In this document: positions 11,758 to 25,478 of the stretch, piece after piece
How positions within the stretch are numbered: the first letter of the stretch is position 1
How the letters are laid out: every line of letters starts with the position of its first letter
Source: Myxococcota bacterium
Lineage (GTDB): Bacteria; Myxococcota_A; SURF-8
DNA length: 64,000 nucleotides
Reading direction: 5' to 3'
Assembly: GCA_965140415.1 (NCBI GenBank)
Contig: OZ223209.1
Coordinates: 3,360,001 to 3,424,000, forward strand
Position numbers and translations under genes: made by a program
Notes under the pieces: model-generated
Database searches by the model: none
The model's input: the letters and a program-made list of their open reading frames with translations, nothing else
What the model was told of the DNA's origin: nothing

Positions 11758-12516
11758 CTACTCGGCGCTGTCGCCGTTCTCCTCGTCCCCATTGGGCTGA
11801 ATGACGCTGCGCAGGTTCTCGAAGATAGTCTTGAACTGCCGGATTTCCTGCTCGTTGCAGTCTTCTTCCTTTTCGAGTTGCAGGACGGCATACGTGCCGC
11901 TCGGCATGGTGAGCGAGAGCCGGGTCTTGGCGGTGAACAGCGGTAGGTCGGCGCGATGACCGTCGGGGAGTTGGAGCTTGCCGAGGAAGTGACGCGCCAG
12001 ATAGCGCTGCACGGGTCTGCGCGACGTGGCTTTGGCGCGGATGATGAAGGGGTTCTCATCGTCCAGATCGAGGCCGAGCAGCGTATATACAATATCGCAA
12101 TCCGGAGCGCTGGCTTGACCGTTATTGCGCCCCCACAATCGATGCGGACAGTTGGCGCAGTCCACGACCTCGCCGTCGGTGCGGACGCCTTCCACGCCGT
12201 CATCCGAACGGCAGTGCTCGGTCATACCGCTGGTTTCCGAGTAGGTTGCCCATCGGCGGGACTTTTTGATGTGGAGCAGGACGCAACTGATTTCATCCTT
12301 CGCCTCGCCTGTCAGCGTGTTGACGAACACATTCTTCGGCACCCAGGAACCGTCCGGTAGGCGGCGTTTGGTGTTGTAGGCGAAGGAAGGTAGCGGCCGA
12401 TCTTCATTGTCCAGATGGGACAGAGCCTGAAGACCGGCCAGCTCGGTGATGAGGGATTGGGGGATGGGGAGATTCGGCGCGGTCGGCGCCGGCGGGGAAT
12501 GGGTATTCTGGGTCAT
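11758..12516 (-). CDS. Phage-type Zn-binding protein, possibly single-stranded DNA-binding
   Basis: CRSDDG...CANCP..WG......PDC four-Cys pattern recalled from phage replication modules; acidic C-terminus; GAGGAG RBS before MTQNTH. Confidence 0.5.
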   Translation of the reverse strand: MTQNTHSPPAPTAPNLPIPQSLITELAGLQALSHLDNEDRPLPSFAYNTKRRLPDGSWVPKNVFVNTLTGEAKDEISCVLLHIKKSRRWATYSETSGMTEHCRSDDGVEGVRTDGEVVDCANCPHRLWGRNNGQASAPDCDIVYTLLGLDLDDENPFIIRAKATSRRPVQRYLARHFLGKLQLPDGHRADLPLFTAKTRLSLTMPSGTYAVLQLEKEEDCNEQEIRQFKTIFENLRSVIQPNGDEENGDSAE

Positions 12517-12591
12517 GGCGTTTCTCCTCTGTGAAATTGGGATAGGAAGTAGGAATGGCATTGCGCGACGCCTTCGGGAGCGTGATCGTCA

Positions 12592-13292
12592 TCAGACCGA
12601 GAGAGAAAGCTTCGCCGTCTGAGCCAGATCGCGGCCAAGCCGTTTCAGGCGATGGTGGGCTCGGCTGAGGTTCATACCGGCCGCCTCCCCGCATTCCTGA
12701 AAGCTGCCTCCGGCCTGACGTGTTGCCAGCAAGCGACGGTCCTGTTCGGTCTGCTCGTCGAGCCAGGTTTCCAGGTCGAAGGCGCTGACGAGCTGATCCT
12801 CCACGTCGCGGGTCGCGGCATAGGAGACCGCGTCGACGAAGCTCATGGGATTGTCGCGGGTCAAGTCGTTGTCGGCATAGGGACCGGGCTCCATGTCGGG
12901 CAGGCCGTCGAAGCGCAACACTTCGATGCCGTCTCAAAGACAGGCCATCGCGCCCATCGCATCGCGACGACGGCGGCGACCGGGGACAAAGCAGTGGGAC
13001 GGGTCGAAGGCTTTAATGCGTAAACCGTGAACGAGCGCCTCGCGGTCGGTTGGATGGCCTTTCATCGCGGCGGAGTGGTAATCGCGCCAGATCATCGCCA
13101 ACGCTTCGGCGAATCTGTCTTCCGCGTCGTGCGCGCCGTCGAGATGGCGCATGACAGGGTTGAAGATGCCGTCGGTGATCATGGCCGTGAAATCGGCGTT
13201 GATCGCCTCGTGAGACAGGGGAAGGGACGGAATCTGTTAAAGGGAATGAATGGCTGATCGGGCTGGGAATCGGTTTGCATACAGGTTTCCAT
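12592..13292 (-). pseudogene. Disrupted sigma-70 region-4-like HTH protein
   Basis: ORFs 12592-12921 and 12934-13182 share a frame and are separated by one TGA. The RBS-linked ATG at 13292 is out of frame with them. C-terminus WLDEQTEQDRRLL...GGSFQECGEAAGMNLSRAHHRLKRL is sigma-4/HTH-like. Confidence 0.6.
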
Positions 13293-13461
13293 GATTCGGA
13301 CCTCCTGGTCGTGTTCAACGCGCACGAAGGCCGTTACCACCGGCCCACGCGCAGCGTCGCCGCCTTGCGGGCGGTGGGTTTGATTGGGACGGGAAACATA
13401 TCCCGCCGATTCTTGATGTATGGTTACGCGCCGTGAAAATCAGCGCGGGTTTGAGCTATAA

Positions 13462-13487
13462 GGCTTGTGTCAGAGCTGACACAGGCC
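13462..13487. promoter_or_regulatory. 26-bp near-perfect palindrome (operator or recombination site)
   Basis: GGCTTGTGTCAG-AG-CTGACACAGGCC upstream of the leftward operon. Confidence 0.5.
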
Positions 13488-13930
13488 GTTCGGACGGACG
13501 CGAATCGTCCGGGCGTCGTGGGTCCGCGCTCGCGAGGCCGGTTGGGAAATATGAGACGAGCCGGATATCAGATTCGTTACACAATTCTTATACAATTATT
13601 CTGGCAGAACTTGCATTTCAGTCCCTACTGAGCCCGTTTGGTCCGGAAAACAGTCCAAAAAATATTTGAAAGGCCGTTTTTTCCAATGGATTCGATTTTT
13701 CTCTGGAGTGAGAATAGAAAAATATGGCCGTCGTTCTGACGAAAGGGCTGATCGAAGGAATATGGAGCGTTGTTTGGCTTATGAATACCGACAAGGCGGG
13801 TGTCGCAATTGTCGGTGCTTGGGTCCGAACGGACCTGATTGTGAGCAGGGGGTGGTCCGCAGGACTGGGACCCCTATCGATTTTCTATAGCCCTAGGCCA
13901 ATACGAGCACCGACGCCGGCAATTGCGAAA

Positions 13931-14020
13931 CCGACGTCGCAGTCCTGCTGCTATCCGACGTCGCAGGGGATGAACCGACGTCGGTTGGAGCCTACACGGG
14001 CTTATCTATGCCGACGTCGC
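13931..14020. repeat. Cluster of four CCGACGTCG motifs with a palindromic core
   Basis: Copies at 13931, 13955, 13975 and 14011; the third extends to the perfect palindrome AACCGACGTCGGTT. Confidence 0.8.
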
Positions 14021-14117
14021 TCCACCGTATACTCCAGCACCGTGGCTGTCAGCACCGTATGGAGGTTGAAGGGAGGGAGTGGCAGTATTTGCGGCAAACG
14101 TTTTCCGCCCGCGTCCT

Positions 14118-14213
14118 TCACTCGCCGTCCAGGTGGGGGTTCACCGGCGTGACAGTGTCTTCGCCGTTACCGGGTTTAACGTTGTTTGCGGGCTTCGGGT
14201 TTATATCGCTCAT
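14118..14213 (-). CDS. Putative 31-aa peptide
   Basis: MSDINPKPANNVKPGNGEDTVTPVNPHLDGE; GGAGG RBS; starts 20 nt after the upstream HTH gene stop. Confidence 0.4.
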   Translation of the reverse strand: MSDINPKPANNVKPGNGEDTVTPVNPHLDGE

Positions 14214-14233
14214 GGCTTCCTCCGTGTAACTGG

Positions 14234-14668
14234 TTATTCGAACAGGTTCCGCAGGCTACCCTTAGATGGCCGGTCCCAGTTGGCGAACCAGAGCGGTTTG
14301 AGCGGCTCGCCGTTCTCATCCCTGGAGGTATTAGTGGCCAGCGGCATCATCTTCATGTACGACCCTTCGCGCACTAGATCATATCCATTTCTGCGGCACT
14401 CTTCCCGCGCAACCTGAGTGACCAAGCTTCCCCGTCTGTCGTCCAGTAAGGCGCAGTAGCCGCCCTGATTCCAGCGTTTCACCCATTCGCGGACCGACGC
14501 GGTCGAGCAGCCGAGTTTTGCGGCGACCGACTGCTGGGATTCGCCTTCCATCAGCGCCAGAACAGCGCGCAAGCGAAGTTGGAGCCGGTCATCTGATTCC
14601 CGGTCGATAAGGGACTGGAGTTGTGCAGGGCTGAACAACGTCTGATCTGGAGGTTTCAGCGGCGGCAT
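14234..14668 (-). CDS. Transposase-type (IS630/IS481-like) HTH protein without catalytic domain
   Basis: RLRAVLALMEGESQQSVAAKLGCSTASVREWVKRWNQGG..ALLD. Confidence 0.75.
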   Translation of the reverse strand: MPPLKPPDQTLFSPAQLQSLIDRESDDRLQLRLRAVLALMEGESQQSVAAKLGCSTASVREWVKRWNQGGYCALLDDRRGSLVTQVAREECRRNGYDLVREGSYMKMMPLATNTSRDENGEPLKPLWFANWDRPSKGSLRNLFE

Positions 14669-15180
14669 TACTCGATTCCCAGCGATTTGTTCAGCATCGC
14701 GATCGACCTCTCCAGGTCATTCAACAACTCCTTTCTCGCCGCCCGGTCAAACGGGGTGTTGAACCTCGGAACCACGCGCGGTCGCTTGTCTCCGATGAGG
14801 ATATCGCTCCCCTGGCCACGGAAGTATGCGCGCAGTGGGGGGAACTCCAGATGTCTGCCCTCGGAGTATTCCAACTGGGAAATCCAGGTCAACCCACATT
14901 CGTTCCAGAGTTTCGTCCAGGTGATAAGGGTCTCCAGGGAAATGTGATGCCGCGAGCAGATCGACTCCCAAGGTTTGCCGGCCATCAGGCTGCGAATGAC
15001 CTGCAAGCGGTGAATCAGGTTTTCATCATCCTTGGACTCAATGAGGTCATCGAGATGGGTAATGTCCTCAGTGCATACGCTTTCCCGCAGAAAGACTGGC
15101 ATGGCATCTATAGGCAGGCCCATTTCGTGCAGTATGGCCTGACGCTGCTCGTCCGGGTGCGGTTTTTGATTAGAACTCAT
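14668..15180 (-). CDS. Transposase-type HTH protein without catalytic domain
   Basis: RLQVIRSLMAGKPWESICSRHHISLETLITWTKLWNECG; overlaps both neighbours. Confidence 0.65.
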   Translation of the reverse strand: MSSNQKPHPDEQRQAILHEMGLPIDAMPVFLRESVCTEDITHLDDLIESKDDENLIHRLQVIRSLMAGKPWESICSRHHISLETLITWTKLWNECGLTWISQLEYSEGRHLEFPPLRAYFRGQGSDILIGDKRPRVVPRFNTPFDRAARKELLNDLERSIAMLNKSLGIE

Positions 15181-15445
15181 TCATGTCCTCCATTTCTCCG
15201 CGAGCCTTCCGGATCCCGTTCATTACGCTGTCCGGGCCGTATCTACGGTCCAAAATATCCAATTCCTGCCCACGCCGATACAACCGGAGCCAGCGATACC
15301 CCGTGCTCCTGGCGACGCCAACGACTTTCGCTGCGGTGTGGACGGGTACGTCACGGACCAGCACCGCTGTCAAAAACATGGATTTTTGGTGCTGCTTGTA
15401 CTGAGGCTCGAAAACAGGCGGTCCTTGTATCCCGGTCACTTCCAT
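15170..15445 (-). CDS. Small transposase-type HTH protein
   Basis: TAAKVVGVARSTGYRWLRLYRRGQELDILDRR; start re-placed at MEVTG. Confidence 0.65.
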   Translation of the reverse strand: MEVTGIQGPPVFEPQYKQHQKSMFLTAVLVRDVPVHTAAKVVGVARSTGYRWLRLYRRGQELDILDRRYGPDSVMNGIRKARGEMEDMNEF

Positions 15446-15656
15446 CGCTAATTTCCCTCGTGTATCTCGGATTTCCAACGGGCAGGTTACCCAATGAAAA
15501 CGGACAACACTCCAGTTTCGCTTGTCCGAAACGTCTGCATTCACAGTACATCCATCGTGATTAATAGTCAATAATACTAGGAATGAAGAGATACAGTTTC
15601 TTCTGGACATAGTGAACCGCTGTACGTACAATCCCTTATCGGTTACGGGAGGTGAC

Positions 15657-16664
15657 ATGCCGAGACGAAAGCTCGACCCTAAACAACGACTGCGCCTGCG
15701 CGCCCTCAAGCGCGCGGAAAAGATCGGCATGACCGCTGCTGCGAAGGAGTCCGGCATTAGCCGCGTCATGCTTCACCGGTGGCGCGATCGGTTCGAGGCC
15801 GAGGGTATCGAGGGATTGCGCGACCGCAGCCATCGTCCACATCATCACCCCCATACAACACCGGCGGAGGTGGCTGAGCAGGTAGTCGAAGTCGCTCTCC
15901 TGCATCCCACGCATGGCTGCCGCCGGTTGGTCGGCGCGCTTTCCGAACGGGGTATCTCAATTAGCGAACCGACCGTTCAAGGGATCTTGGTTGACCGGGA
16001 ACTTGGTCTGGCTGAACAACGTGTGGGAATGGTCGAGCGGCGCATCCTCAGCGGCGCGTGCAAGCCATCCACCGAACTTCTCGCCGAGGTGGAGGCGGCG
16101 GATCCCGCGTTTCGTGAGCGGACCCGTCCCATACCACGACCCGGCAGTCTCTTGATCACCGATATTATCCGCGGCGGAATCATCGAGGAGGGGAGACGGC
16201 TCCGCGTAGTGGTGGTCGTCGACGCCGGGAGTGCTTACGCCTGGGCCATGCCGTTCACGGACATCGAGGAACTGCCACACATCGAGATTTTGCGCGGCCA
16301 GGTTATGCCCGACCTAGAGGAATGGGGGGTTAAACCCTTTAGTATTCTCACCCCGAATCGCGCGTCATGGGCCGAGGATAGTCCGGAAGGACGGGCATTC
16401 AGGATGTGGTGCCGCGAGGTTTTCCACCTACGGCAGAAGTTCCAGCCGGAGGGAGTGCGGAATGGAAACGTCGAGGGTTACCATCGGGTTTTCCAATCTT
16501 GGTTCCGCCGGGAGGGACTGCACAGGGCGCCGATATTACAGGTCGAGCAGGATATCACCGGGTGGCTGGAAGAGCGGAACCGGGAAACCCGGTGGATGTA
16601 TCCAAGTTTCGGTCGATCAGCGTATAACATGATGGCGACAACCGAACACCGACGTCCCGTATAA
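15657..16664 (+). CDS. IS481-family transposase-like protein with an altered DDE triad
   Basis: HTH (AAKESGISR..LHRWRDRFEAEGIEGLRDRSHRP); rve-like core PGSLLITD / VVVD / ILTPN (usually LTDN) / NGNVE; GGAGG RBS. Confidence 0.75.
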   Translation: MPRRKLDPKQRLRLRALKRAEKIGMTAAAKESGISRVMLHRWRDRFEAEGIEGLRDRSHRPHHHPHTTPAEVAEQVVEVALLHPTHGCRRLVGALSERGISISEPTVQGILVDRELGLAEQRVGMVERRILSGACKPSTELLAEVEAADPAFRERTRPIPRPGSLLITDIIRGGIIEEGRRLRVVVVVDAGSAYAWAMPFTDIEELPHIEILRGQVMPDLEEWGVKPFSILTPNRASWAEDSPEGRAFRMWCREVFHLRQKFQPEGVRNGNVEGYHRVFQSWFRREGLHRAPILQVEQDITGWLEERNRETRWMYPSFGRSAYNMMATTEHRRPV

Positions 16665-16731: not shown

Positions 16732-19700
16732 CTATTTCTCCGCCCAACTTGTTCCGATACTACATTCCACCAATCCTTTGACACTCGCATCAGGGAAGAT
16801 ATCCAGCATTCCCTCCATCATCACTTCGGCGAGGATCTGCTGCACCTCCTCGACATCGCCGGCGTCCGCCTCGACAATCAGCTCATCGTGCACCGCACCA
16901 ACCAATGAGGCATTCACTCCGGATTCATCCAACTTGGCTGTCAACCGCGCCATGGCGGCGTACAACACCTCTGCCGCACCGCCCTGGACCTGATAATTAA
17001 AGACCCGGAATGGGGTCAACTCCCGCGCACCGAACACAATCTCCCGACCGGCTGGAGTGCGTACCGAGTTCGATTGTTTGGCCTGCCGGAGCGCTCTCTG
17101 ATGCCAGGAAGCAAAGCCAGGATAGGACTTGAACCAAGCCTCCCGGTGCTGCCTGGCCTTTTTAATACTCATCCGAACGCCGTAGGTCTGTTCTGCATAT
17201 TTCTGAAGCCCCTTAGCCGACATCCCGAACAGAAGGCCGAAATTGATCGCCTTGGCTAACTGGCGTTCCAATTTCGTCACCTCCGAAGGGTCCTTATCCA
17301 GCAACATCGCCGCCGTCATCGTGTGGACATCCACACCGTGTATGTAAGCCTTCAGCAGAATGCTTTCAGGGGCAATATGGGCTGCGCTTCGCAACTCCAT
17401 CTGTCCGTAGTCGGCAATGACCAGTTGGCGGCCTTCATGGGCAACAAACAACCTGCGGAACGCTGCTTCTCTCGGCATGTTTTGCAGATTCGGCTTCGAG
17501 CAGCTCATGCGCCCGGTGATGGCCCCGGCCAGCCTGAAATCCGCATGGATCCTCCCCGTCGTGGGGTGCAGGTGTTCGATCAGACCCTTGCCGTAGGTAG
17601 AACGCTGCTTGGCCACGTCCCGATAGGGAAGGAGAATGTCGCTCACGACGGCCCGTGCGTCCTTGGAAAGCAACGGCAACCCCGCCTGCAGCTCGGCAGC
17701 TCCCAGTTTCAGCCCGCCCCCCGGAGTCGTCGGCCACTGCGCCAAAGCCTTTTTCCCGCTCTCTTTCAGCTTCGAAGCCACCCACTCTCCTAGTTGTTTG
17801 GTGCTGTTCGGGTTCCGCCCACCCAGGGCCTTTTGCAGCTTGGTCCGAAGCTGAGCCTCTCGTTCTCCCACATCAGCCATCAAGACGGCGTGCGCGTCTC
17901 TTTCAAAGGCCATGCCGGTCAGGCACATCTGTACCACAGCCGGTTGTGCGCCGATGACAAGATCGTAGGCGCGCCGGCTGTCCCGGCTTTCGACTTCTGC
18001 CTCAATTCGCTCGAACAAACGTCGGGTGACCTCGGCGTCCTTGGCGGCGTAGGCCAGTTGTGTGTCCGACATCTCTCCACTCCAGTCGGATTTCTGAAGG
18101 GTCTTGTCCACGGTCTCACCCAGCCAGTGCCCCACGGCATTTTCCAACGAGGCATGCTCGCCGGTGACCAGGTGGTGACCGAGCATGGTGCAGTCCAGGT
18201 TGACGGAGATGCCCGCAGCCTTCAGCATTCCCATGTCGAACACGGCGTTGTGCGCGATGCCGCGGATCTGTCTCAACGGCTCCCGTACGGCTCCGAGCCC
18301 ACCGATCTTGTCCACGTCCAGCACAACCACCGGCCCGTCCTCCGGCGCCAACTGGACGAGCCGAACTCGATCCAGGATGGGATCAAGCCCCGTGGTCTCC
18401 ACGTCCAGGCCGACCCGCTGACCCGAATCCGCCAGTTCGCCGATGACCCGACGCGCCTCGTCTGCGTCCACGATCAGCGTGTAATCGATGCCGGACGGTG
18501 CGTTCGTAGACTCGATCCGGTCGGAGACCGCTCCCATACTCTCCGTCGAACGGGGCGTGGTCGGTGGGACTGATTCCGGATCGTAATCGATCATCTGCCC
18601 CGATTCATCCCCTACCAGCATCTCCATCTGCGGCAAGGCCTCTCTTAACGCCTGGCCGAGATCTGCGATCTCAACGGTTCCGTCTTGCGAGTGATCACCG
18701 CAATTACGATTGAAGCCATGCACCTCCACCTCCTCCAGCCTGTGCCAGGCCTTATGGGCGTAAAGAGCGACGTCGCCGGTCATACCACGATGCCGCACAA
18801 GGGAGAGCCGCACCCGACCGCCCGCTCCTGGACCGAACCGGGGGTACTGCTGCTCCAGTTGCTGGATATGCCGAAAACAGGCCTGTGCCCGTGTTTCGTC
18901 ACCACGCATCCGGGCCTGATGACCGACAAACTCCCAGGGGTCAATAGCCACCTGCGTTGTGTTCTCGCCTTTGCCTTCCTTCACGTAGACCACCTGTGTT
19001 TGCATGGTGAGGAGGCCGTCCGCGGCATGCGCGATCGCCAGGCTGTCGCGCGCTGAATTTACATCGATTTCGCCCTCCTTGTTTGCCTGCCGTTCTGCCT
19101 CCTTTGTCGTAGATGACAGCGCAATCACCACCGCACCCGTTTTACGCGCAAGATCTTTACAGGCCACGGCGAGATTAGTGACTCGGGTTGTCGTGTCACC
19201 GTATCGGTCGAGCTGCTCGACCCCAGTGCGCGCAAGTTGCAAATAATCGATTACGACGATCGGCGTTTTATCGGGATGCTGCCGACGAACACGGCGAACC
19301 CATGCTCCGGCATCTGCCAACGTCGTCTCCAGACCCGCCTCCCAGATTTCGAGGAACTGACCCTCGTTCTGGAGATATTCAGTCAGGCCTTTGGTGAAAA
19401 CCGCTACCTCCTCGCGGTCCAGCAGCTGCATCTCGACCCGGCGGGAGTTCATTCCAAGCTTGCGCGCCATGGCATAGATCATCATCTGGTGCATGGCCAT
19501 TTCGTAGCCAACGTACAAGGCGGGAGTGCCATTCGCCGCCGCATGATCGAGAGTCTGCGCTGCGAGTGTCGTTTTCAATCCCTTGGGCGGCGCAACGATG
19601 ACGTACAGCCGCCCTCCATGCCAACCGCCATGGAGTAGGCCGTTCAATCCCTCGAACGGCGTGGGGATAACGGCGTTGGTGTCCCGCGCAAACAGCTCGA

Positions 19701-21279
19701 CGATCCGGGCCTGCTGCTGGGCGAGTGGACCGTGTTGCCCTGTCTCGATCAGGCAACCCTCCAGGTTATGCTGGAGCTGGTGGACCACCGCAGCCGCTGA
19801 CGGGCTGCTATCACCGGAGTTCGCCTCCGATAGAACCTGATGCACACGATACCGCCGCTCGAATTCCAAGGCCCGCTGGTATGCCGACATTCCTGATTCC
19901 GGGCTGTAGGGATGGTCTCGCAATTGCGCCATGAATCGCTCCACGTCCTCTACCAGCGCGTCCCGGTGTTGAGCAATACTCCGCTCCGCGATATCACAGT
20001 CGAGTTCCCGATAAACCGCCGCTGATGTCAATCCGCCATCGGTCATGGCCCGGGCCATCAGAGCTGCCGGGCTATAGGTCACGGTGATTTCGCCGTTCGA
20101 CTCCAGGGAGTGATCCGGCCAGACGTGCTCCAGTCTGTGAACCGGAAGGCCATCTTCCATGGCGGACCGGAGCAGGTCGAGGGCGACGGGAGGTTCGATC
20201 TGCCGCAACCCGGATTCAGACACGGACGGCGGAGGCCATTCGTCCGTCCGCGCCGGGCAGTCCTGACAACTGAAATATTCCCGCCAGCCCTTCATTTTTC
20301 GCGGGTAATCACAACGGAAATCGTCGCTGTGGTTCGAGAAGAAATTTTTGATCTTCCCATCGAACGTCTTGATGCTCGGGTGATCCTCAGAGGCCTCGGC
20401 CAGTTTGGTCGCCAGGTACCGGGATGCCTTCTTATCCAGTCCCCTCGAGTGCGCATATTTCGCAAGATTTAGGTTGGCCTTATCGTAGTCGTACTCATGG
20501 GACGATCCGTGTTCCAACATGGCGTCGATGCAGGGCGGGTGCTCGTACTCCGGTAGTTTCGACCAGTCTGGTTTGACAGAAGGCCCGGACTGCTTCGGCT
20601 CCCGGAACCCAGTCGCCTGCGCTTCTTTCCGGATCCGGTCGTGGGCCTGCCGGAACGGCGCCACCGTCACCACCTCGGTCCGCGCCAGCAGCGAGATCTG
20701 CTCATCCAGGTCCGGTGGATCGTCGAAGCCCGTGAGGGGCGCGCTGTCGGAGTACCCAGCCGGGTCCAGATACGCCGACCACAACCCCGATCCGCGATGC
20801 TTGCAGACCGGCAGCTTCATAACCGCCTGCGCCGCCTTGGTCGGGACCGCCGTATCGGGCCGGACATCGATGTGCCCTGCGCCGGGACAAGCCACATTGA
20901 GCAGATGTTTAAGAAAGGCCTGCAATTGCCCCGCCGGCACCGGTTCCGCAAGGCAGAAATCAAGGCCGTAGCCCTTGCGCCCGCTGTTGCAAACCAGAGG
21001 TGCGGGAAGGCCCAGTTCCTCTATCTTCCGCAGAACTGCCTGGACCAGAGGCCATTGATCCGCACCGCCGTCGAAATCGAGACGACCCACCCGACAGGTG
21101 CTCTCCGGTCCAACGATGTTCAAGGCCGCCGTCTGCTCACCGCGAAAATGGGCGCGCAGGTCGTTCTCGGCGATCGGTTCATCGCGGGGAATGTAGGCCT
21201 CGCCGTCCTCGCTCTGGAAATGGACTGGCTGGCTGGGCACCAGGTATAGCCGGTCTACGTGTTCAAGCAGTTCTTTCAT
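16732..21279 (-). CDS. Primase (AEP-like) - DnaB-like SF4 helicase - 3'-5' exonuclease - family A DNA polymerase fusion, 1515 aa
   Basis: LDFD and SGRKGY (AEP); PPC...C...CxxC; APPKGLKTT and VVIDYLQL (helicase); LDVET, HNAVFD, YAAKD (exonuclease); ADYGQMELR, AKAINFG, VHDEL (PolA motifs A/B/C); AGGAGGAG RBS before MKELL. Confidence 0.88.
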   Translation of the reverse strand: MKELLEHVDRLYLVPSQPVHFQSEDGEAYIPRDEPIAENDLRAHFRGEQTAALNIVGPESTCRVGRLDFDGGADQWPLVQAVLRKIEELGLPAPLVCNSGRKGYGLDFCLAEPVPAGQLQAFLKHLLNVACPGAGHIDVRPDTAVPTKAAQAVMKLPVCKHRGSGLWSAYLDPAGYSDSAPLTGFDDPPDLDEQISLLARTEVVTVAPFRQAHDRIRKEAQATGFREPKQSGPSVKPDWSKLPEYEHPPCIDAMLEHGSSHEYDYDKANLNLAKYAHSRGLDKKASRYLATKLAEASEDHPSIKTFDGKIKNFFSNHSDDFRCDYPRKMKGWREYFSCQDCPARTDEWPPPSVSESGLRQIEPPVALDLLRSAMEDGLPVHRLEHVWPDHSLESNGEITVTYSPAALMARAMTDGGLTSAAVYRELDCDIAERSIAQHRDALVEDVERFMAQLRDHPYSPESGMSAYQRALEFERRYRVHQVLSEANSGDSSPSAAAVVHQLQHNLEGCLIETGQHGPLAQQQARIVELFARDTNAVIPTPFEGLNGLLHGGWHGGRLYVIVAPPKGLKTTLAAQTLDHAAANGTPALYVGYEMAMHQMMIYAMARKLGMNSRRVEMQLLDREEVAVFTKGLTEYLQNEGQFLEIWEAGLETTLADAGAWVRRVRRQHPDKTPIVVIDYLQLARTGVEQLDRYGDTTTRVTNLAVACKDLARKTGAVVIALSSTTKEAERQANKEGEIDVNSARDSLAIAHAADGLLTMQTQVVYVKEGKGENTTQVAIDPWEFVGHQARMRGDETRAQACFRHIQQLEQQYPRFGPGAGGRVRLSLVRHRGMTGDVALYAHKAWHRLEEVEVHGFNRNCGDHSQDGTVEIADLGQALREALPQMEMLVGDESGQMIDYDPESVPPTTPRSTESMGAVSDRIESTNAPSGIDYTLIVDADEARRVIGELADSGQRVGLDVETTGLDPILDRVRLVQLAPEDGPVVVLDVDKIGGLGAVREPLRQIRGIAHNAVFDMGMLKAAGISVNLDCTMLGHHLVTGEHASLENAVGHWLGETVDKTLQKSDWSGEMSDTQLAYAAKDAEVTRRLFERIEAEVESRDSRRAYDLVIGAQPAVVQMCLTGMAFERDAHAVLMADVGEREAQLRTKLQKALGGRNPNSTKQLGEWVASKLKESGKKALAQWPTTPGGGLKLGAAELQAGLPLLSKDARAVVSDILLPYRDVAKQRSTYGKGLIEHLHPTTGRIHADFRLAGAITGRMSCSKPNLQNMPREAAFRRLFVAHEGRQLVIADYGQMELRSAAHIAPESILLKAYIHGVDVHTMTAAMLLDKDPSEVTKLERQLAKAINFGLLFGMSAKGLQKYAEQTYGVRMSIKKARQHREAWFKSYPGFASWHQRALRQAKQSNSVRTPAGREIVFGARELTPFRVFNYQVQGGAAEVLYAAMARLTAKLDESGVNASLVGAVHDELIVEADAGDVEEVQQILAEVMMEGMLDIFPDASVKGLVECSIGTSWAEK

Positions 21280-21490
21280 CGTCTCCTCCTTCACGAGAGA
21301 GTAGGCCCGCAGCAACGCCACCACGGCGCGGCGCGGTGAATAGGCCTATTCTCCCGCGAGGGGGAGGCCGCCCGCCACGGCCCCAGACGGGAGCGGCGGA
21401 CTCACCCCCTCTTGGGGGTTCTTTAAGATACTTGGGCGCTCGTGGCCGGACAGATGTGACCTGATTTCAGTTGGTTACAGGATCGGGCGC

Positions 21491-21551
21491 GAAAATAAGT
21501 GGTGGGTGTTCGGAAAATAAGTGGTGGGTAAACGGAAAATAAGTGGTGGGT
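21491..21551. repeat. Three 17-bp direct repeats at 22-bp period (iteron-like origin)
   Basis: GAAAATAAGTGGTGGGT at 21491, 21513 and 21535. Confidence 0.9.
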
Positions 21552-21574
21552 GATTGTAAGAGCTTGACATCAGG

Positions 21575-23620
21575 TCAGTTTTTAGGCTTCTTGCGTGGCC
21601 CGGGCTTTTCTAGTTCAGAGACCAGAATTCGTTTATCTCTCTTTAAATCCAGGGACTTGTACATCACCGCATAATCGTTTGACCCTTTGATCTTTACGAG
21701 CTCTCCCAGCGGGTTGGCTGGCGACGGGATTTCCACCGACCAGTCGGCAATCACCCCGGCCTCCGCCACCTGATCGAGTGAGGTAAATATCCGGATGGCG
21801 GCCTTTTTGGGCGTCAGGCCGTTGATCAGCGAGCCAAGACCAAGCGCGTGCAGGATGGTTTCCACCCGCGTGCCGTTGCCATTCGGAGTCTCCAACTCGG
21901 TGGTTCCCAGATTCCTGTACGTCGTGCGGAGGCGCAGCTCGATATAGAGCTGGAGTGCGGGAGCGGTGTGTAGGGCCTTTCGACGATAGCCGAACATGGC
22001 CTGACGGTTCGTGACCATATAGAGGGCTTTTTGGCCTTCACCAGTAATATAGGACGCCAACTGGGGATTGATCCGCCAATGAATGCAATGGGGTTGGCCA
22101 TTACGGATATCGACTGCCGAGACCTGGATGATACCCGTGATGATCCGTTCCTGGCCTTTATTCCTGAGACCGGAAAACGGGATGTTGATGCGGCGGGCGA
22201 CGTTCATGAAGGCGAAAAACAGCTCGCGCGGGTCGAGGTTTTCCCCGAGAATATTCGTGGTTCCTCTGCTCGCGATCCGCTCCACCTTGTCAGGGCGAAG
22301 AGTTTTCCAGAAGTCCGCCGCGGTGGTGGCGGTGTCATACCCGGTATTTAGCGTGCCGTTTTCCTCCGCCATCTGGAACAGGCCCACGTATCCCTGCGGC
22401 AGGAGCCATGAGACATTCGGCGCGACAAACACGGTCTGCACCGAGTTTAGCAGGGTGTCTTTAGACAGGTCATCGTCAATCACCGCGAATTCAAGGTCAC
22501 GATAGGTACGGCTTTGTGAAACCGGGCGTTGCAAGGCCAAAGCCTCGGCACCTTGACCAGTTGTAACGATGGAGAGTGGTTTGTCCATTTCCGGGTTCAC
22601 CTTCAGCACCGGCATGTGTGGGATGATATCTAAGAAATTGGATGGTACCTCTGTGAACTGACCGCGTAGTTCGGCACGTTGATCCGCATTACGCTCAATT
22701 CGACACCGCGTCATGTCCAGTTGCCGGCTCGCTCGGAGGAGTCGTTCTCTATGGCGGTTGATGTAATCGGTTAGACTGAGATACAATTGGCGAATTTCAC
22801 CGATATACCAGTCGACTTGCTCGCCGGACGCATCAGGCGAAAGTTCTCCAAGATCCTTCCGATGTCGAAAAAGTTTAGCAAGTTTCTCGGCCAGCTTGCC
22901 GGTGAATTCAGGTGTAGGGATGTCGATCCACTTGTTGGTCGGGCCTTCAATGAGCCAGAATTGAATGGTTTCGTCGTCTGAGTCAGAGAGAGTTGTCCCG
23001 CAGATCAGACGTTTCGTCGGGATTTTTAGACGATCCATCAGGTCATACAGGGCAGCCCAGGATGCGAGGTCATAGTAGGTCTCGACCTCATCCGTCAGTG
23101 GCATATAGGCGATGCTGGCTTGGGGGGTAGCAGTTGTACGGCTTAGTATCGAGTGGTTTGGGATCGCGTCCAGATATGCCTGCACGTATTCCAGCTCGGT
23201 TTGTTGTTGCTCGCGGAACTATCTCCGGGCGGCATCCTCTCTAAACAGCCGTACTTCGGTGGTTTTCGTTGTGGGTGACGTTCCCTCCATCGCGGTTACA
23301 TTCGATTCCACGCGCAGGACATCTTCGTGGCCGGGCTCACGCCAGAACCGAGTCTCCAGGTGGGTCAGCGCAGCCAATGGGAACTCCTGCCACAGGTCGG
23401 TGGCGGCATCCTCCACGGATCGGTCACCAACCGGTTCGGGGTAGCAGTAGAAATAGCCCTGGGCGAATGGTTTTTTGTAGTAGCCCGTCCAGTGGTCATC
23501 TGCAGCGGGCATCGCTACGTCGATCACGTTGACGGTGAGACCGCGCGCCGGGACTATGGGTAGGTCGATCGTGGTGAACGGAGATCGCGGAGTGGTCGTG
23601 GGTATCAGGTTCATGTTCAT
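21575..23620 (-). pseudogene. Putative replication initiator (Rep) split by one in-frame TAG
   Basis: The 133-aa and 536-aa ORFs are in one frame: ...EDAARR*FREQQQTELEYVQAY...; AGGAGG RBS only at the upstream ORF; iterons follow the 3' end. The Rep call rests on context only. Confidence 0.55.
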
Positions 23621-23652: not shown

Positions 23653-23721
23653 TGTGTAGGGTTTCATAGCAGCTCTACAGAATTATCCGAGACACATTGA
23701 GCACATTGAAAACCCTACACA
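23653..23721. repeat. 12-bp inverted repeat plus tandem CACATTGA at the 3' end of the D5 helicase gene
   Basis: TGTGTAGGGTTT (23653) / AAACCCTACACA (23710); CACATTGA at 23693 and 23702. Confidence 0.65.
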
Positions 23722-25145
23722 GAACGTTTCCCCATTGTTTTCTGGTTCAGCCTGGCCCCCGAATATACAAAACCTTTTCGCGTTCGGATTTTCTCGAATC
23801 GCTCAGACATTTTTTTACCGAAGGCGGTTTCGGTCATTGGATTACCGCCACGATGTTTGCAGTAGGTTACATATGCCGTGAAAAATTCGCGAGCGGTGCT
23901 GGCCAATGGAAAACCGGGTTGGACATCTGGGTCGACCTTTACCTCGTCACGTAGAAAAGCGTCGATGGTCGCGGATTCCTGGGCATCGGCGTACGCCTCG
24001 GTCTCGTCCGCGATCCATGGGAGGGCGGCTGGGTCACGATGCTGATCGAGAAACCCAGATACATCTGTCCGGAGTGGTTCCAGAATCCAATGTAAAAATG
24101 CCGGTCCTTCCTGTAATAGCGCTTGGTGGCGGAGAAATTGATAGTCGTCTGTACCCAATATTCCCTCGGCCGGGATGACGTGGAACAATTTGGGGATCTC
24201 ATCACGAGATCCACGAAAAACCGGAGTGCTACGGTCGGCAGGCGTGGTCATTATTACCGTAAAAGGTGGCGCGACTATATCGACTGTTTCTGTTTTTGAG
24301 AGATTGAGCTGGATTTCCGGACGCTCATAAAACGGCCATAGAATCCGCTCGTCCAGCATAGCGTATTTAGACTGGTGTATATCTATAGCGAGACGAAGGC
24401 TGAGCAACTGGTGGAGCGATCGAAATTTATTTGGTTCGACCGCCGTTGTCACTGGCATTTCCACACAATAGCCGCCAGCTATCTGGTTGATAAACTGGAG
24501 TAGCAACCGGATACCATCCTCATCAGCGGTTTTGAGGATAATCAGTTTTTTTGCTCTGAATCCCGCTAAAACGGAACCTAAATACCGACGGAAAAATTCA
24601 AACTTCTCTATATCGTCATTGAATATGGTACTCAGAATGCCTGTAGTCCGTTCGCAACTGCCGGTCTGATTTAAAGGAAAACGTGTCGACACCAGAGGGA
24701 AATAATCCAGTGCCGCGGGACTCAACTGTCCGGTGAGAACATTGTATAGCCCGGCCGGTGTGTTAACATACCCAACATGCCCCTGGAAATGTCGGGTATC
24801 CGTTTCGCAGACGGCCTCAATCAATCTCAGGATTTCACGGTAGGTTGTGGATTTTGCCATCGCAGCAGCACGTCCTGCATCCGCCCAACGTCCCTGCCGC
24901 GATAGCTGGTTTGCAAATTGGAGAATTACCGACTGGATGTCCGGGAACAGATCGTTCTCACGAGCGGGTTCAAATATCCGCCCATTGAACCGCAGCCACT
25001 TTATGGTCGGGTTATACGCCAGAGCCGAGCCATGCTCTCGTAGAAATGCCTCTGCAATCGCCGGTAGGCCGACGAAATTCTGCTCAAATAAACGAGCAGC
25101 TTCTGACCCGAGGGTTCTATCCATTTCGATTGCTCCCAGCATCAA
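23715..25145 (-). CDS. P4/D5-family primase-associated SF3 helicase-like protein, degenerate ATPase motifs
   Basis: D5_N-like W..FNG / NTPAGLYNVLTG; FRRYLGSVLAG; C-terminal winged-helix pattern Y..YC...G..PM....FGK; Walker A position reads KTADEDGIRLL. Confidence 0.72.
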   Translation of the reverse strand: MMLGAIEMDRTLGSEAARLFEQNFVGLPAIAEAFLREHGSALAYNPTIKWLRFNGRIFEPARENDLFPDIQSVILQFANQLSRQGRWADAGRAAAMAKSTTYREILRLIEAVCETDTRHFQGHVGYVNTPAGLYNVLTGQLSPAALDYFPLVSTRFPLNQTGSCERTTGILSTIFNDDIEKFEFFRRYLGSVLAGFRAKKLIILKTADEDGIRLLLQFINQIAGGYCVEMPVTTAVEPNKFRSLHQLLSLRLAIDIHQSKYAMLDERILWPFYERPEIQLNLSKTETVDIVAPPFTVIMTTPADRSTPVFRGSRDEIPKLFHVIPAEGILGTDDYQFLRHQALLQEGPAFLHWILEPLRTDVSGFLDQHRDPAALPWIADETEAYADAQESATIDAFLRDEVKVDPDVQPGFPLASTAREFFTAYVTYCKHRGGNPMTETAFGKKMSERFEKIRTRKGFVYSGARLNQKTMGKRSV

Positions 25146-25329
25146 CAGTCTGTTCGTTTAGCCACTGGGCGATTGCGTCCTCGTCGTATCGGATCAACCG
25201 TCCGACCTTGATCCATTTGGGGCCGACGCCCCGTCTACGCCACGCCCTAGCACAGGCCTTAGTTATTCCCAGCCATTCGCAGAGCTGGGTTTCGGTTTTC
25301 AATCGACGTTGGATTTGCGGTTGTTTCAT
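25117..25329 (-). CDS. AlpA/excisionase-like HTH protein
   Basis: LCEWLGI....RAWRRRGVGPKWIKVGRLIRYDEDAIAQWL; GGAGG RBS. Confidence 0.85.
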   Translation of the reverse strand: MKQPQIQRRLKTETQLCEWLGITKACARAWRRRGVGPKWIKVGRLIRYDEDAIAQWLNEQTVDAGSNRNG

Positions 25330-25478
25330 GATCACCTCCAGTAGCGAGTAATCGCATTTGGTGACCATCGTAATGGAGGGAAAAATTAATGTATCGGTCT
25401 TATGGTAGAGAAATTGGGCGGGCTTACGATCGGAAAACAGATGAAAGGTTTAGCGGTCAGGAATGCCAAGCTTTCTTT

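What the first reader, a model, noticed from the sequence alone, without database searches (positions are those of the whole stretch)
16732..21279. Single-polypeptide replisome: primase, SF4 helicase and proofreading PolA in one 1515-aa ORF
Seen: one uninterrupted frame with an AEP-like N-terminus (LDFD, SGRKGY), a Cys-containing PriL/PriCT-like region (HPPC...C...CQDC), a DnaB-like helicase (APPKGLKTT, IDYLQL) and intact Exo I-III and PolA A/B/C motifs. Known: primase-helicase fusions are common in phages and plasmids; the textbook triple fusion is apicoplast Prex, which uses a TOPRIM primase. An AEP-type triple fusion in a bacterial integrated element is unusual to my knowledge. The AEP motif II His appears replaced (SGRKGYG rather than SGxKGxH), so priming might be altered or done by another domain.
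Basis: partly seen in the sequence, partly recalled or inferred. Interest (0 to 1): 0.82.

Follow-up and report, generated by a model that had tools for sequence, protein, structure and literature searches.

The report
Primase-helicase-polymerase fusion of a mobile element
One 1515-residue bacterial gene really does string together a primase, a ring helicase and a proofreading DNA polymerase; it looks like the self-replication engine of a rare plasmid-like element that has inserted into the chromosome.

Summary
Window 16732-21279, on the minus strand, is an uninterrupted 1515-codon gene with a Shine-Dalgarno site. It reads, in order:
- an AEP primase domain (VIA Z 22 to the CRISPR-associated Prim-Pol);
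- a helical domain with four invariant Cys, whose best fold match is archaeal PriX;
- a full DnaB-type helicase (N- and C-terminal domains);
- a variable linker of about 80 residues;
- a 3'-5' exonuclease and an apicoplast/Aquificae-type PolA.

It is not an assembly artefact. A second copy in the same genome (84% identical) is also open, about a dozen metagenomic proteins share the architecture, and short-read contigs show no indel.

It lies in a ~16 kb, 60% GC island. Upstream sit three 22-bp iterons and a ~700-aa gene. This arrangement recurs in relatives, including small cyanobacterial plasmids where the same domains are split into two abutting genes. A third island copy carries a PolA/DUF927 module in the same slot. 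Best reading: the replicase of an iteron-type replicon.

Three oddities:
- the motif II His is Gly in 15 of 18 fused proteins;
- the Walker A Gly is Leu only in this genome's two copies;
- this island copy has two in-frame stops and no integrase.

AEP-PolA fusions were noted briefly in 2023, so this is a new variant of a known kind.

The parts
16732..21279 (-). Replicase polyprotein gene, 1515 codons plus stop (16732-16734); ATG at 21279 with a Shine-Dalgarno site
20614..21279 (-). aa 1-222: AEP primase(-polymerase) domain. Motif I D68/D70; motif II SGRKGYG (Gly105 where His is expected); motif III D138/R140/D142; flange K155, H161
   Evidence: Model pLDDT 90.9; Foldseek 7nqf E 1.2e-10, TMt 0.80; VIA 7nqd_A Z 22.2, rmsd 2.3, 193 aligned; family profile hits 7nqd at 1.1e-29
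20245..20586 (-). aa 232-345: helical Cys4 domain (C250, C323, C338, C341; also G258, K304), PriX/PriL-CTD/PriCT-like
   Evidence: The four Cys are invariant in 49 of 49 rows, which were chosen because they hold the domain. The isolated-domain model (pLDDT 88.1) has PriX 5of3_C as top VIA hit: Z 5.7, rmsd 3.6, 92 aligned, next hit 4.2. Foldseek found nothing significant.
19738..20226 (-). aa 352-514: DnaB N-terminal-type helical domain
   Evidence: VIA 4zc0 Z 7.9, 3gxv Z 7.5, 2r5u Z 7.4; family profile aligns to DnaB residues 16-420, E 1.2e-31
18736..19692 (-). aa 530-848: DnaB-type RecA-like helicase domain. Walker A APPKGLKTT (Leu568 where Gly is expected); Walker B D678
18490..18735 (-). 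aa 849-930: poorly conserved linker of variable length; this is where the cyanobacterial plasmid homologues are split into two genes
17980..18489 (-). aa 931-1100: 3'-5' exonuclease domain with Exo I, II and III present
16735..17979 (-). aa 1101-1515: family A polymerase domain with motifs A, B and C present
21491..21559 (.). Three tandem 22-bp iterons (GAAAATAAGTGGTGGGT...), about 210 bp upstream of the replicase start; candidate origin
21575..23620 (-). Upstream partner gene. It is one 697-aa ORF in copy 2; here it is broken by an in-frame TAG at 23219-23221 into 133-aa and 536-aa ORFs. Candidate initiator.
23715..25145 (-). 476-aa D5_N / P4-type primase C-terminal (SF3 helicase-like) gene
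25117..25368 (-). 83-aa HTH_17 (excisionase/AlpA-like) gene
15612..16664 (+). 350-aa IS481-family-like DDE transposase, present in all three island copies
8989..15769 (-). Left module of the island, shared by three copies. It holds genes of 378, 515, 105 (ThiS-like), 267 and 249 aa (the 249-aa gene is broken here by TGA at 12934-12936) and three HTH proteins. Function unknown.

Best explanation
The gene encodes the replicase of a plasmid-like mobile element that sits integrated in the chromosome. Inferred mechanism: a ~700-aa partner protein encoded just upstream, or the primase module itself, recognises three 22-bp iterons and opens the origin. The DnaB-type part of the polyprotein assembles into a ring on single-stranded DNA. 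The N-terminal AEP domain, helped by the PriX/PriL-like Cys4 domain, makes primers. The proofreading PolA, tethered to each helicase subunit by a flexible ~80-residue linker, extends them. Shown here: domain identities, intact catalytic motifs apart from two deviations, purifying selection, the conserved iteron/partner-gene arrangement, and homologues that are the only recognisable replication genes on small plasmids. Inferred only: all enzymatic activities, oligomeric state, which protein binds the iterons, and whether this particular copy is still active.
For: Domains:
- AEP fold: Z 22.2 to the CAPP Prim-Pol domain; family profile E 1.1e-29 to the same chain.
- Cys4 domain: best match is PriX.
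- Helicase: DnaB N- and C-terminal domains, profile E 1.2e-31 over DnaB residues 16-420.
- Exonuclease and PolA: Pfam 4.6e-18 and 9.5e-78.
- Closest solved polymerases: 8jrb 4.8e-73 and apicoplast Prex polymerase 6.5e-61, against Taq 1e-48.

Catalytic residues:
- D68/D70/D142, Exo I-III and Pol A/B/C are present.
- The AEP acidic residues are invariant in 12 of 12 full-length homologues.

Not an artefact:
- A second 1515-codon copy, 84% identical, lies in the same genome.
- dN/dS between the copies is 0.16 overall and 0.09-0.43 per domain.
- 12 clusters at 90% identity have the same architecture, and 6 of 6 further long representatives scanned have it too.
- Contigs of two runs tile 16500-21700 with no indel inside the gene.

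Replicon context:
- Three tandem repeats of 21-23 bp lie upstream of the replicase in 6 of 7 loci examined, with unrelated repeat sequences.
- The ~700-aa upstream gene has homologues in the same position in L170 (4e-31) and L176 (4e-24).
- On the 12.2-kb circular plasmid pAL20118a the same domains are two abutting genes (875 aa, then 737 aa, no gap) at about 30% identity.
- In island copy 3 the slot is filled by a PolA-only gene, a 221-aa gene and a DUF927/Cch-HTH helicase. This is the gene set of the CCPol-MP-Cch2 replication module (PMC7581432, abstract read).
- The island is 57-62% GC against 46-53% in the flanks, and copy 2 ends in a P4-type tyrosine integrase.
Against: - The motif II His, a nucleotide-binding residue of AEPs, is Gly here and in 15 of 18 fused proteins.
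- The Walker A Gly before the Lys is Leu in both genomic copies, whereas 36 of 36 other helicase-bearing relatives aligned have Gly.
- This island copy has in-frame stops in the candidate initiator (TAG) and in a 249-aa gene (TGA), and no integrase gene was found in it.
- Copy 2 has Lys in place of the Exo I Glu.
- The candidate initiator has no Pfam family. Its only functional hint is an ESM Atlas neighbour cluster in which 15% of members carry Rep3_N, with recognition below the tool's threshold.
- The PriX match is modest (Z 5.7) and Foldseek found no significant match for that domain.
- No activity, oligomer or expression was measured.
Confidence: 0.75

Rival explanations
1. The family is a replicase, but the copy in this window is a decaying relic. 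The island is stuck in the chromosome and the gene, though open, no longer works as a helicase-driven replisome.
For: - There are two in-frame stops in neighbouring island genes, including the candidate initiator.
- No integrase is present in this copy, although copy 2 has one.
- Walker A G568L is found only in this genome's two copies.
- Copy 2 carries E961K in Exo I.
- 0 of 60 related genomes hold an N-terminal homologue, so the host does not need it.
Against: - Both 4.5-kb frames are uninterrupted.
- dN/dS is 0.09 in the helicase domain and 0.16 overall. However, this reflects selection since the two copies diverged, possibly before integration.
- The iterons of the two copies are identical in sequence, so copy 2's intact partner protein could act in trans.
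Confidence: 0.3
2. The AEP domain of the Gly-105 clade no longer synthesises primers. It serves as a DNA-binding or scaffold domain, and priming comes from the host, from the P4-type neighbour, or from the PolA itself.
For: - The motif II His is replaced by Gly, which has no side chain.
- Stand-alone homologues of about 270-300 aa that also lack His have lost the DxD motif too (e.g. P0071, P0079, P0085, P0087, P0097, P0102), which shows the fold can persist without catalysis.
- AEP-domain dN/dS is the highest of all domains (0.43).
Against: - D68, D70 and D142 are invariant in 12 of 12 fused homologues, as are R140, K102 and H161.
- The Cys4 partner domain, needed only for initiation in known primases, is also kept.
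- Active AEPs with Gln in place of this His are on record: PolpTN2 and RepB' (PMC5862659, passages read).
- Fused proteins that keep the His exist (P0013, P0066, L176), so the fusion arose with an orthodox site.
Confidence: 0.2
3. The protein serves DNA repair or a defence/conflict system rather than element replication.
For: - The best Pfam match is named for a conflict system (AEP-TOTE).
- The closest solved AEP is CRISPR-associated.
- The role of this PolA subfamily in prokaryotes is listed as unknown in PMC10201439.
Against: - No PADLOC model hit any of the 10 neighbouring proteins scanned; the polyprotein itself was not scanned against PADLOC.
- The conserved iterons and upstream partner gene point to a replicon.
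- The only recognisable replication genes annotated on the 12-kb plasmid are the split homologues.
- The slot is interchangeable with a known replication module.
Confidence: 0.05
4. The fusion is an assembly or sequencing artefact that joins separate genes.
For: Split versions of the same domain set exist in other replicons.
Against: - Two diverged copies in one genome are both open.
- At least 12 independent metagenomic clusters are fused.
- Short-read contigs show no indel. The best-holding run may come from the same sample as the assembly, so this last point is weak on its own.
Confidence: 0.01

Closest known systems
Prex (plastid replication-repair enzyme) of Apicomplexa
   Same: One polypeptide in the order primase - SF4-type helicase - 3'-5' exonuclease - PolA. 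The polymerase belongs to the same neighbourhood: PDB 5dku E 6.5e-61, better than Taq or Klenow. PMC10201439 places the apicoplast polymerases in PolA cluster #8.
   Different: Prex uses a TOPRIM primase (PMC10201439), whereas this protein uses an AEP plus a PriX-like Cys4 domain. Prex is nuclear-encoded and organelle-targeted; this protein belongs to a bacterial mobile element with iterons.
AEP-Cys4-DnaB primase-helicase with an abutting exo-PolA gene on small cyanobacterial plasmids (pAL20118a 12.2 kb, pDongsha4a 26.7 kb, a Geminocystis NIES-3708 plasmid 17 kb)
   Same: The same domains in the same order at about 30% identity across 76-82% of the query. pAL20118a has three 21-bp tandem repeats upstream. 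The Cys4 domain is conserved.
   Different: These are two genes separated at the linker (875 + 737 aa with no gap, or 871 + 719 aa with a 12-nt gap). The motif II His is retained. Their PolA groups outside the fused clade in the tree. The records annotate them only generically.
AEP primase-polymerase fused to cluster #8 PolA, noted by Czernecki et al. 2023 (NAR, PMC10201439)
   Same: An N-terminal AEP fused to an Aquificae-like PolA in bacteria, reported for about 7% of bacterial sequences of the cluster.
   Different: The paper names Verrucomicrobia, Planctomycetota and Nitrospirae and mentions no helicase. The likely counterparts found here (P0015, P0016) carry Prim-Pol PF09250 and DUF3987, a different AEP family and a different ATPase. 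The paper's supplements, which may list accessions, could not be read.
3173 PolA polyprotein of Aquificae viruses (TOSV/TGBSV)
   Same: A large N-terminal helicase/primase-like region fused to a proofreading PolA of the related hot-spring clade (PMC7689252, passages read).
   Different: That N-terminus is a DUF927/COG5519 ATPase, not AEP+DnaB. It sits in a 37-42 kb tailed-virus genome. No relative of the present fusion was found in IMG/VR with the patterns used.
CRISPR-associated Prim-Pol (CAPP) of Marinitoga, Prim-Pol domain
   Same: The closest solved structure to residues 2-219 (Z 22.2, rmsd 2.3), also detectable by sequence profile (1.1e-29).
   Different: Identity is 15-16%. CAPP is fused to other domains and linked to CRISPR loci. 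The wider family shares the His of motif II, but this protein has Gly.
CCPol-MP-Cch2 replication module of SCCmec
   Same: A self-replication module of an integrated element built around a family A polymerase and a helicase, with an iteron-like origin (PMC7581432, abstract and section headings read). A gene set of this type replaces the fusion in island copy 3.
   Different: It consists of separate proteins. Priming is done by the PolA-like CCPol with MP, the helicase is 3'-5', and there is no AEP or DnaB. The gene order in copy 3 differs from SCCmec, and the 221-aa middle gene matched no family.

Membership tests
Archaeo-eukaryotic primase (AEP) superfamily | AEP catalytic fold | tested here: met
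   VIA Z 22.2 (rmsd 2.3, 193 aligned) to 7nqd_A; Z 15.3 to Prim-PolC; Z 12-14 to LigD polymerase domains and human PriS. Foldseek E 1.2e-10.
Archaeo-eukaryotic primase (AEP) superfamily | Motif I hhhDhD/E (metal ligands) | tested here: met
   RLDFDG with D68 and D70, invariant in 12 of 12. Motif definition from PMC5862659.
Archaeo-eukaryotic primase (AEP) superfamily | Motif II sxH (nucleotide-binding His) | tested here: not met
   The motif reads SGRKGYG, with Gly105. The residue is Gly in 15, His in 2 and Asn in 1 of 18 fused proteins, and His in 24 of 24 relatives of 700-993 aa. PMC5862659 reports that this His is family-specific.
Archaeo-eukaryotic primase (AEP) superfamily | Motif III hD/E (third acidic residue) | tested here: met
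   IDVRPDT; D142 is invariant in 12 of 12 and D138 in at least 90%. The wider family has E at the 138 position.
Archaeo-eukaryotic primase (AEP) superfamily | De novo primer synthesis | not testable with these tools
   No biochemical test is available here.
PriL-CTD / PriX / PriCT helical primase accessory domain | Helical fold related to PriX/PriL Fe-S_N, placed after the AEP domain | tested here: inconclusive
   PriX 5of3_C is the single match with Z>=5 among 48,161 chains (Z 5.7, 92 of 107 residues, next hit 4.2). Eukaryotic PriL Fe-S domain 6di2 scores Z 3.3. Foldseek gave no match at E<=0.001. No PriCT Pfam hit.
PriL-CTD / PriX / PriCT helical primase accessory domain | Four Cys ligands of a 4Fe-4S cluster (PriL-CTD type) | tested here: inconclusive
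   C250, C323, C338 and C341 are invariant in 49 of 49 chosen rows. Whether they bind Fe-S or Zn cannot be told from sequence.
DnaB-family (SF4) replicative helicase | DnaB N-terminal helical domain plus RecA-like C-terminal domain | tested here: met
   Pfam DnaB_C 1.8e-19. Residues 352-514 match DnaB N-terminal domains at Z 7.4-7.9. The family profile aligns to DnaB residues 16-420 at 1.2e-31.
DnaB-family (SF4) replicative helicase | Walker A ...GK[ST] | tested here: not met
   APPKGLKTT: Leu568 aligns with the Gly of DnaB's MGKTT. 36 of 36 other helicase-bearing relatives have Gly; only this genome's two copies have Leu.
DnaB-family (SF4) replicative helicase | Walker B Asp (hhhDYLQL) | tested here: met
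   VVIDYLQLA, with D678 invariant.
Family A DNA polymerase with proofreading, Aquificae/apicoplast-like group (cluster #8 of PMC10201439) | Exo I, II, III and Pol A, B, C motifs | tested here: met
   All are present. Full-length Pfam matches cover 3-172/173 and 7-381/381 of the profiles. The motif consensus is recalled from general knowledge of the family.
Family A DNA polymerase with proofreading, Aquificae/apicoplast-like group (cluster #8 of PMC10201439) | Closer to apicoplast/Aquificae polymerases than to canonical Pol I | tested here: met
   PDB: Prex polymerase 6.5e-61 against Taq 1.3e-48 and Klenow 3.4e-46. NCBIfam: 'bifunctional 3'-5' exonuclease/DNA polymerase' 468 bits against Pol I 293 bits, both below their cut-offs. 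In the tree it separates from six canonical Pol I rows (SH-aLRT 100). The paper's own CLANS clustering was not repeated.
Prex-type replicative polyprotein | Primase, helicase, exonuclease and polymerase in one chain, in that order | tested here: met
Prex-type replicative polyprotein | TOPRIM (DnaG-type) primase | tested here: not met
   There is no Toprim hit; the N-terminus is an AEP. The close PolA relatives L172 and L174 do sit beside a separate TOPRIM primase gene; that gene was scanned in L172 only.
Iteron-type (theta) plasmid replicon | Tandem iterons next to the replication genes | tested here: met
   3 x 22 bp at 21491-21559. Triplets of 21-23 bp occur in 5 of 6 further loci; none was found in L085:4300-5250.
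Iteron-type (theta) plasmid replicon | Iteron-binding initiator (Rep) protein | tested here: inconclusive
   The conserved ~700-aa upstream gene has no Pfam family. The only lead is an ESM Atlas neighbour cluster with Rep3_N in 15% of members.

The most novel reading that the evidence does not exclude
Together with one partner protein and three iterons, this single chain is a complete, host-independent minimal replisome. A DnaB-type hexamer would carry six tethered proofreading polymerases and six primases. Its AEP active site would work without any side chain at the canonical motif II position, and in this genome its P-loop would work with Leu in place of the invariant Gly.
Probability: 0.3. 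Interest if true: 0.8.

Novelty: new variant of a known kind. Interest (0 to 1): 0.6.

Why it matters
If the activities are real, this is a bacterial, AEP-based counterpart of apicoplast Prex. It would be a compact module of two genes plus an origin that could replicate DNA with little help from the host. That is useful as a model single-chain replisome, for broad-host-range vectors and for in vitro amplification.

The family also offers a natural series for studying why replisome parts fuse and split:
- fused (this gene and its relatives);
- split in two (cyanobacterial plasmids);
- the same PolA re-partnered with a TOPRIM primase and a DUF3987 ATPase;
- the whole slot swapped for a CCPol-type module within one genome.

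Two conserved departures from textbook motifs make sharp biochemical tests: AEP His to Gly, and Walker A Gly to Leu.

Tried and rejected
- **tRNA attachment site.** I looked for a direct repeat of the tRNA-Pro 3' end (26674-26750) at the far end of the island. There was nothing longer than 10 nt, so the insertion site and exact borders remain undefined.
- **Left border.** The left ends of six copies share only the last codons of the 378-aa gene and a terminator-like hairpin; no inverted repeat or target duplication was seen.
- **Empty site in relatives.** Flanking genes are not syntenic in the five related genomes searched.
- **tRNA genes at the other copies.** No tRNA gene was found in the three loci scanned around copies 2 and 3 (L086-L088).
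- **Scans of genome contigs and viral contigs.** The family patterns returned only ordinary DnaB-like genes at 31% identity or less. This is 'not found with these patterns', not absence.
- **Three-gene split idea.** I supposed that the 292-aa and 512-aa genes before the close PolA of L172 were a stand-alone AEP and a DnaB. hhalign gave probability 0.07% for both, and Pfam shows a TOPRIM primase and DUF3987 instead.
- **PADLOC.** No hit for any of the 10 island proteins scanned.
- **Foldseek on the isolated Cys4 domain.** No match at E<=0.001.
- **Expression.** No RNA holder was listed for the stretch.
- **ESM Atlas.** It gave only leads for the 697-aa and 515-aa proteins.
- **Homologues of the 515-aa protein.** The 12 found carry no family or informative name.
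- **Taxon names for fused relatives.** None are on record.
- **Literature.**
  - A search for the PDB code 8JRB found no paper.
  - Searches for a described AEP-DnaB-PolA fusion found none beyond PMC10201439. The terms used were cyanobacterial plasmid/primase/DnaB/AEP, AEP/DnaB/PolA/fused, Prex/apicoplast/AEP, and the hyphenated 'primase-helicase-polymerase' variants.
  - Schoenfeld et al. 2013, which I recall as first linking these PolAs to viral and prophage helicase/primase fusions, is not in the searchable library. It was seen only as cited in PMC7689252.
- **Earlier findings of this scan.** Nothing near the site or by sequence.

Full report
**Observation.** The stated interval is an open frame on the minus strand only. 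The plus strand is full of stops. The minus strand gives one ORF, 16732..21324. The ATG at 21279 yields the 1515-aa product and lies about 6 nt behind AAGGAGGAG. Against the paralogous copy, substitutions fall 173/110/431 on codon positions 1/2/3, so this is a protein-coding gene under constraint.

**Domain map.**
- Pfam finds DNA_pol_A (1133-1514, 9.5e-78), DNA_pol_A_exo1 (935-1096, 4.6e-18), DnaB_C (538-778, 1.8e-19) and AEP-TOTE (34-140, 7.7e-6). The AEP-TOTE score is 28.2 bits, above the 27-bit cut-off, when residues 1-520 are scanned alone.
- A model of residues 1-520, built on 64 homologues, has mean pLDDT 90.9.
- Residues 2-219 match the Prim-Pol domain of the CRISPR-associated Prim-Pol of Marinitoga (Foldseek E 1.2e-10, TMt 0.80; VIA Z 22.2, rmsd 2.3 over 193 residues). 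Further matches are Prim-PolC, LigD polymerase domains and eukaryotic PriS.
- A profile of the family also finds that chain by sequence (1.1e-29).
- Residues 352-514 match DnaB N-terminal domains (Z 7.4-7.9). The family profile aligns to DnaB residues 16-420 (1.2e-31). The helicase is therefore a complete DnaB-type protein, not only a RecA core.
- Residues 232-345 are a helical domain with four Cys (250, 323, 338, 341) that are invariant in 49 of 49 rows. I chose those rows because they hold the domain.
- Folded alone (pLDDT 88.1), the Cys4 domain's only match at Z>=5 among 48,161 chains is PriX of the Sulfolobus PriSLX primase (Z 5.7, rmsd 3.6, 92 aligned; the next hit is 4.2). The eukaryotic PriL Fe-S domain scores Z 3.3. 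Foldseek gives nothing significant.
- Kazlauskas et al. 2018 argue that PriCT-1/2, PriX and the PriL Fe-S domain are one family that typically follows MGE primase domains (PMC5862659, passages read). The position and fold here fit that pattern. I rate the assignment as likely, not proven. The metal could be Fe-S or Zn.

**Polymerase.**
- The nearest solved sequences are 8jrb (4.8e-73) and the apicoplast Prex polymerase (6.5e-61), ahead of Taq (1.3e-48) and Klenow (3.4e-46).
- The best NCBIfam model is 'bifunctional 3'-5' exonuclease/DNA polymerase'.
- This corresponds to the Aquificae-like 'Hot Spring 1' cluster #8 of Czernecki et al. 2023, which holds the apicoplast enzymes (PMC10201439, passages read). 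I did not repeat their clustering.

**Is the fusion real, and how common is it?**
- The same genome holds a second 1515-codon copy, 84% identical at the protein level, at C1:5405204-5409748.
- dN/dS between the two copies is 0.16 overall and 0.09 to 0.43 per domain. It is lowest in the helicase core and highest in the AEP domain.
- A word-indexed search of 5.8 billion clusters gave 58 hits at E<=0.001 among 8000 scored candidates. Twelve of them, including the two genomic copies, are full-length proteins of 1499-1575 aa at 40-45% identity with the same domains.
- A full HMMER scan of 1.84 billion representatives with residues 1-520 gave 305 hits at E<=0.001.
  - Of the 150 listed, 8 are 1335-1554 aa. 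Six of six scanned have the four-domain set; P0063 was not scanned.
  - 23 are 831-993 aa. Of the six scanned, five are AEP+DnaB_C without a polymerase and one (P0096) is AEP+exo+PolA without a helicase.
  - Most of the rest are stand-alone AEP domains of about 230-310 aa.
- Contigs of two public runs cover all 30 bins of 16500-21700 with no insertion or deletion inside the gene. The best holder may be the assembly's own sample.
- The fusion was not found in several other collections:
  - 0 of 60 related genomes by N-terminal homologue at E<=1e-5;
  - other GTDB representative genomes and IMG/VR, with the patterns used;
  - 50,697 phage records, where no place covers at least 80% of the query.
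- It is thus real, rare and sporadic.

**Context.**
- The gene sits in a 57-62% GC stretch inside 46-53% GC DNA.
- Window ~9030-25115 recurs at C1:5397504-5413588 (82-84% identity). Its left half recurs at C1:2767691-2775524.
- I called genes by third-position substitution bias. On the minus strand they run as follows: an HTH_17 excisionase-like gene, a D5_N/P4-type SF3 helicase-like gene, a large gene of unknown family, three 22-bp tandem repeats, then the replicase. An IS481-like transposase converges on the replicase, and a left module of unknown function follows.
- Copy 2 continues into a tyrosine integrase with an Arm-binding domain.
- The window's copy lacks an integrase.
- The window's copy also has two in-frame stops where copies 2 and 3 are open: TGA at 12934-12936 and TAG at 23219-23221. 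The TAG cuts the 697-aa upstream gene.
- The island borders could not be fixed.

**Evidence that this is a replication module.**
1. Three tandem repeats with a 21-23 bp period lie upstream of the replicase gene in 6 of 7 loci examined. These are the window, copy 2, three metagenomic relatives (L169, L170, L176) and plasmid pAL20118a. None was found in the stretch of pDongsha4a that I searched. The repeat sequences are unrelated between elements but identical between the two genomic copies.
2. The ~700-aa upstream gene has homologues in the same position in L170 (731 aa, 4e-31) and L176 (780 aa, 4e-24). It has no Pfam family. An ESM Atlas neighbour cluster carries Rep3_N in 15% of its members, which is only a lead.
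3. On three small cyanobacterial plasmids the same domain series, at about 30% identity, is split at the linker into two genes. On the 12.2-kb circular pAL20118a the genes abut with no gap, and these are the only recognisable replication genes annotated there.
4. In L176 the ORF runs off both ends of a 13,482-nt contig, as expected for a circular replicon. Other relatives sit on contigs of about 13-22 kb.
5. In island copy 3 the slot behind the transposase holds a PolA-only gene (558 aa), a 221-aa gene and a DUF927 helicase with a Cch HTH domain. This is the kind of gene set shown to be the SCCmec replication module (PMC7581432, abstract read). The gene order differs, however, and the middle gene is unassigned.

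**Module shuffling.**
- I built a quick ML tree of 37 exo-PolA domains (LG+G4, SH-aLRT only, rooted on canonical Pol I rows that are not monophyletic).
- All AEP-DnaB-fused polymerases fall in one group of 24 rows (support 96).
- Nested in that group, next to P0060 (support 96), are three unfused polymerases. In L172 (scanned) and, by matching ORF sizes, L174, the polymerase follows a TOPRIM primase gene (Zn-ribbon, DUF7146, Toprim_3) and a DUF3987 ATPase gene.
- The cyanobacterial split polymerases group with the PF09250-DUF3987-PolA fusions outside this clade (support 96).
- This PolA lineage has therefore been joined to at least four different primase/helicase sets. The AEP-DnaB fusion is compatible with a single origin and one later detachment.

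**Deviations from the textbook.**
- *Motif II.* The wider family reads SG[RN][RK]GxH: His in 24 of 24 relatives of 700-993 aa, and in the split plasmid proteins. Among 18 fused proteins the residue is Gly in 15, His in 2 and Asn in 1.
  - The metal ligands D68, D70 and D142, together with K102, R140 and H161, stay invariant in 12 of 12, and K155 in at least 90%.
  - Several stand-alone relatives that lack His have also lost DxD.
  - PMC5862659 reports that this His is family-specific, and that active enzymes such as PolpTN2 and RepB' carry Gln there.
  - I therefore favour an altered but working site (about 0.7) over a dead one.
- *Walker A.* It reads APPKGLKTT. Leu568 aligns with the Gly of DnaB's GKT. 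All 36 other helicase-bearing relatives aligned have Gly, and only this genome's two copies have Leu. Yet the helicase core has the lowest dN/dS of any domain (0.09). I cannot explain this.
- *Copy 2.* It has Lys in place of the Exo I Glu.

**Comparison and verdict.**
- Functionally the protein resembles Prex: primase, helicase, exonuclease and PolA in one chain with a related polymerase. It fails the TOPRIM criterion.
- It resembles the viral 3173 polyprotein in principle, but with a different ATPase.
- Its true relatives are the AEP-Cys4-DnaB primase-helicases of plasmids.
- An AEP fused to a cluster #8 PolA is noted in one sentence and one table row of PMC10201439, without mention of a helicase and for other phyla.
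- My four literature searches found no description of the AEP-PriX-like-DnaB-PolA chain, its iterons or its partner gene. Supplements were closed, and Schoenfeld 2013 could not be read.
- I file it as a new variant of a known kind, with interest 0.6.

Noticed in passing
L088 (G000:C1:2764000-2783999), 11645-17473: A third copy of the island keeps the left module and the IS481-like transposase. In place of the fusion it carries a 558-aa PolA-only gene, a 221-aa gene and a 685-aa DUF927 + Cch-HTH helicase, followed by a Fic-domain gene. This is a whole replication-module swap within one genome.
   Followed up: partly
window 12934-12936 and 23219-23221: In-frame TGA and TAG stops interrupt two island genes that are single ORFs (249 aa and 697 aa) in copies 2 and 3 or in copy 2. 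The window's island copy also lacks the integrase that copy 2 has at L087:3132-4304.
   Followed up: yes
window 19567-19593 (codons 563-571): The Walker A motif APPKGLKTT has Leu where 36 of 36 aligned relatives and DnaB have Gly. The change is shared only by the two copies in this genome, although the helicase domain has the lowest dN/dS (0.09).
   Followed up: partly
window 8989-13182: The left module of the island (genes of 378, 515, 105 ThiS-like, 267 and 249 aa) has no family assignment. The 378-aa gene's 3' end recurs at four further places in the genome. The 515-aa protein's nearest ESM Atlas clusters are hypothetical proteins mostly from tailed viruses, which is only a lead.
   Followed up: partly
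window 8953-8972 and the left ends of the other copies: A terminator-like hairpin with the same stem (GGAAGAGG...CCTCTTCC) stands at the left edge of at least four copies, although the sequence between it and the last gene has diverged. It may mark the island border.
   Followed up: no
window 4682-7168: This 828-aa ORF corresponds to two adjacent genes (about 442 and 383 aa) at 81-86% identity in three related genomes. It is a possible host gene fusion or a lost stop, unrelated to the island.
   Followed up: no
L172:1811-6326 and L174:816-5384: The closest unfused PolA relatives (45-46% identity) follow two overlapping genes. In L172 these are a TOPRIM primase with a DnaG zinc ribbon and a DUF3987 ATPase. 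L174 has ORFs of matching size that were not scanned. This is a Prex-like gene set in separate pieces.
   Followed up: partly
L176 (13,482-nt contig), ORF parts 2-2074 and 10696-12069: The fused replicase ORF runs off both contig ends, which suggests a complete circular replicon of about 13.5 kb. Clusters of other relatives sit on contigs of about 13.5-14.2 kb.
   Followed up: no
proteins P0071, P0079, P0085, P0087, P0097, P0102 (about 270-290 aa): These stand-alone homologues of the AEP domain have lost the DxD metal ligands as well as the motif II His. They appear to be inactivated primase domains of unknown role.
   Followed up: no
protein P0169 (713 aa): This relative begins with the Cys4 domain and continues into DnaB_C with no AEP domain detected: a PriX-like domain fused to a helicase alone.
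   Followed up: no
L170:646-8769: In this metagenomic relative the fused replicase is accompanied by an Eco57I/MmeI-type methylase-endonuclease (1303 aa), a Fic protein, a serine resolvase and a DEAD-box helicase. This gene content is plasmid-like rather than phage-like.
   Followed up: no
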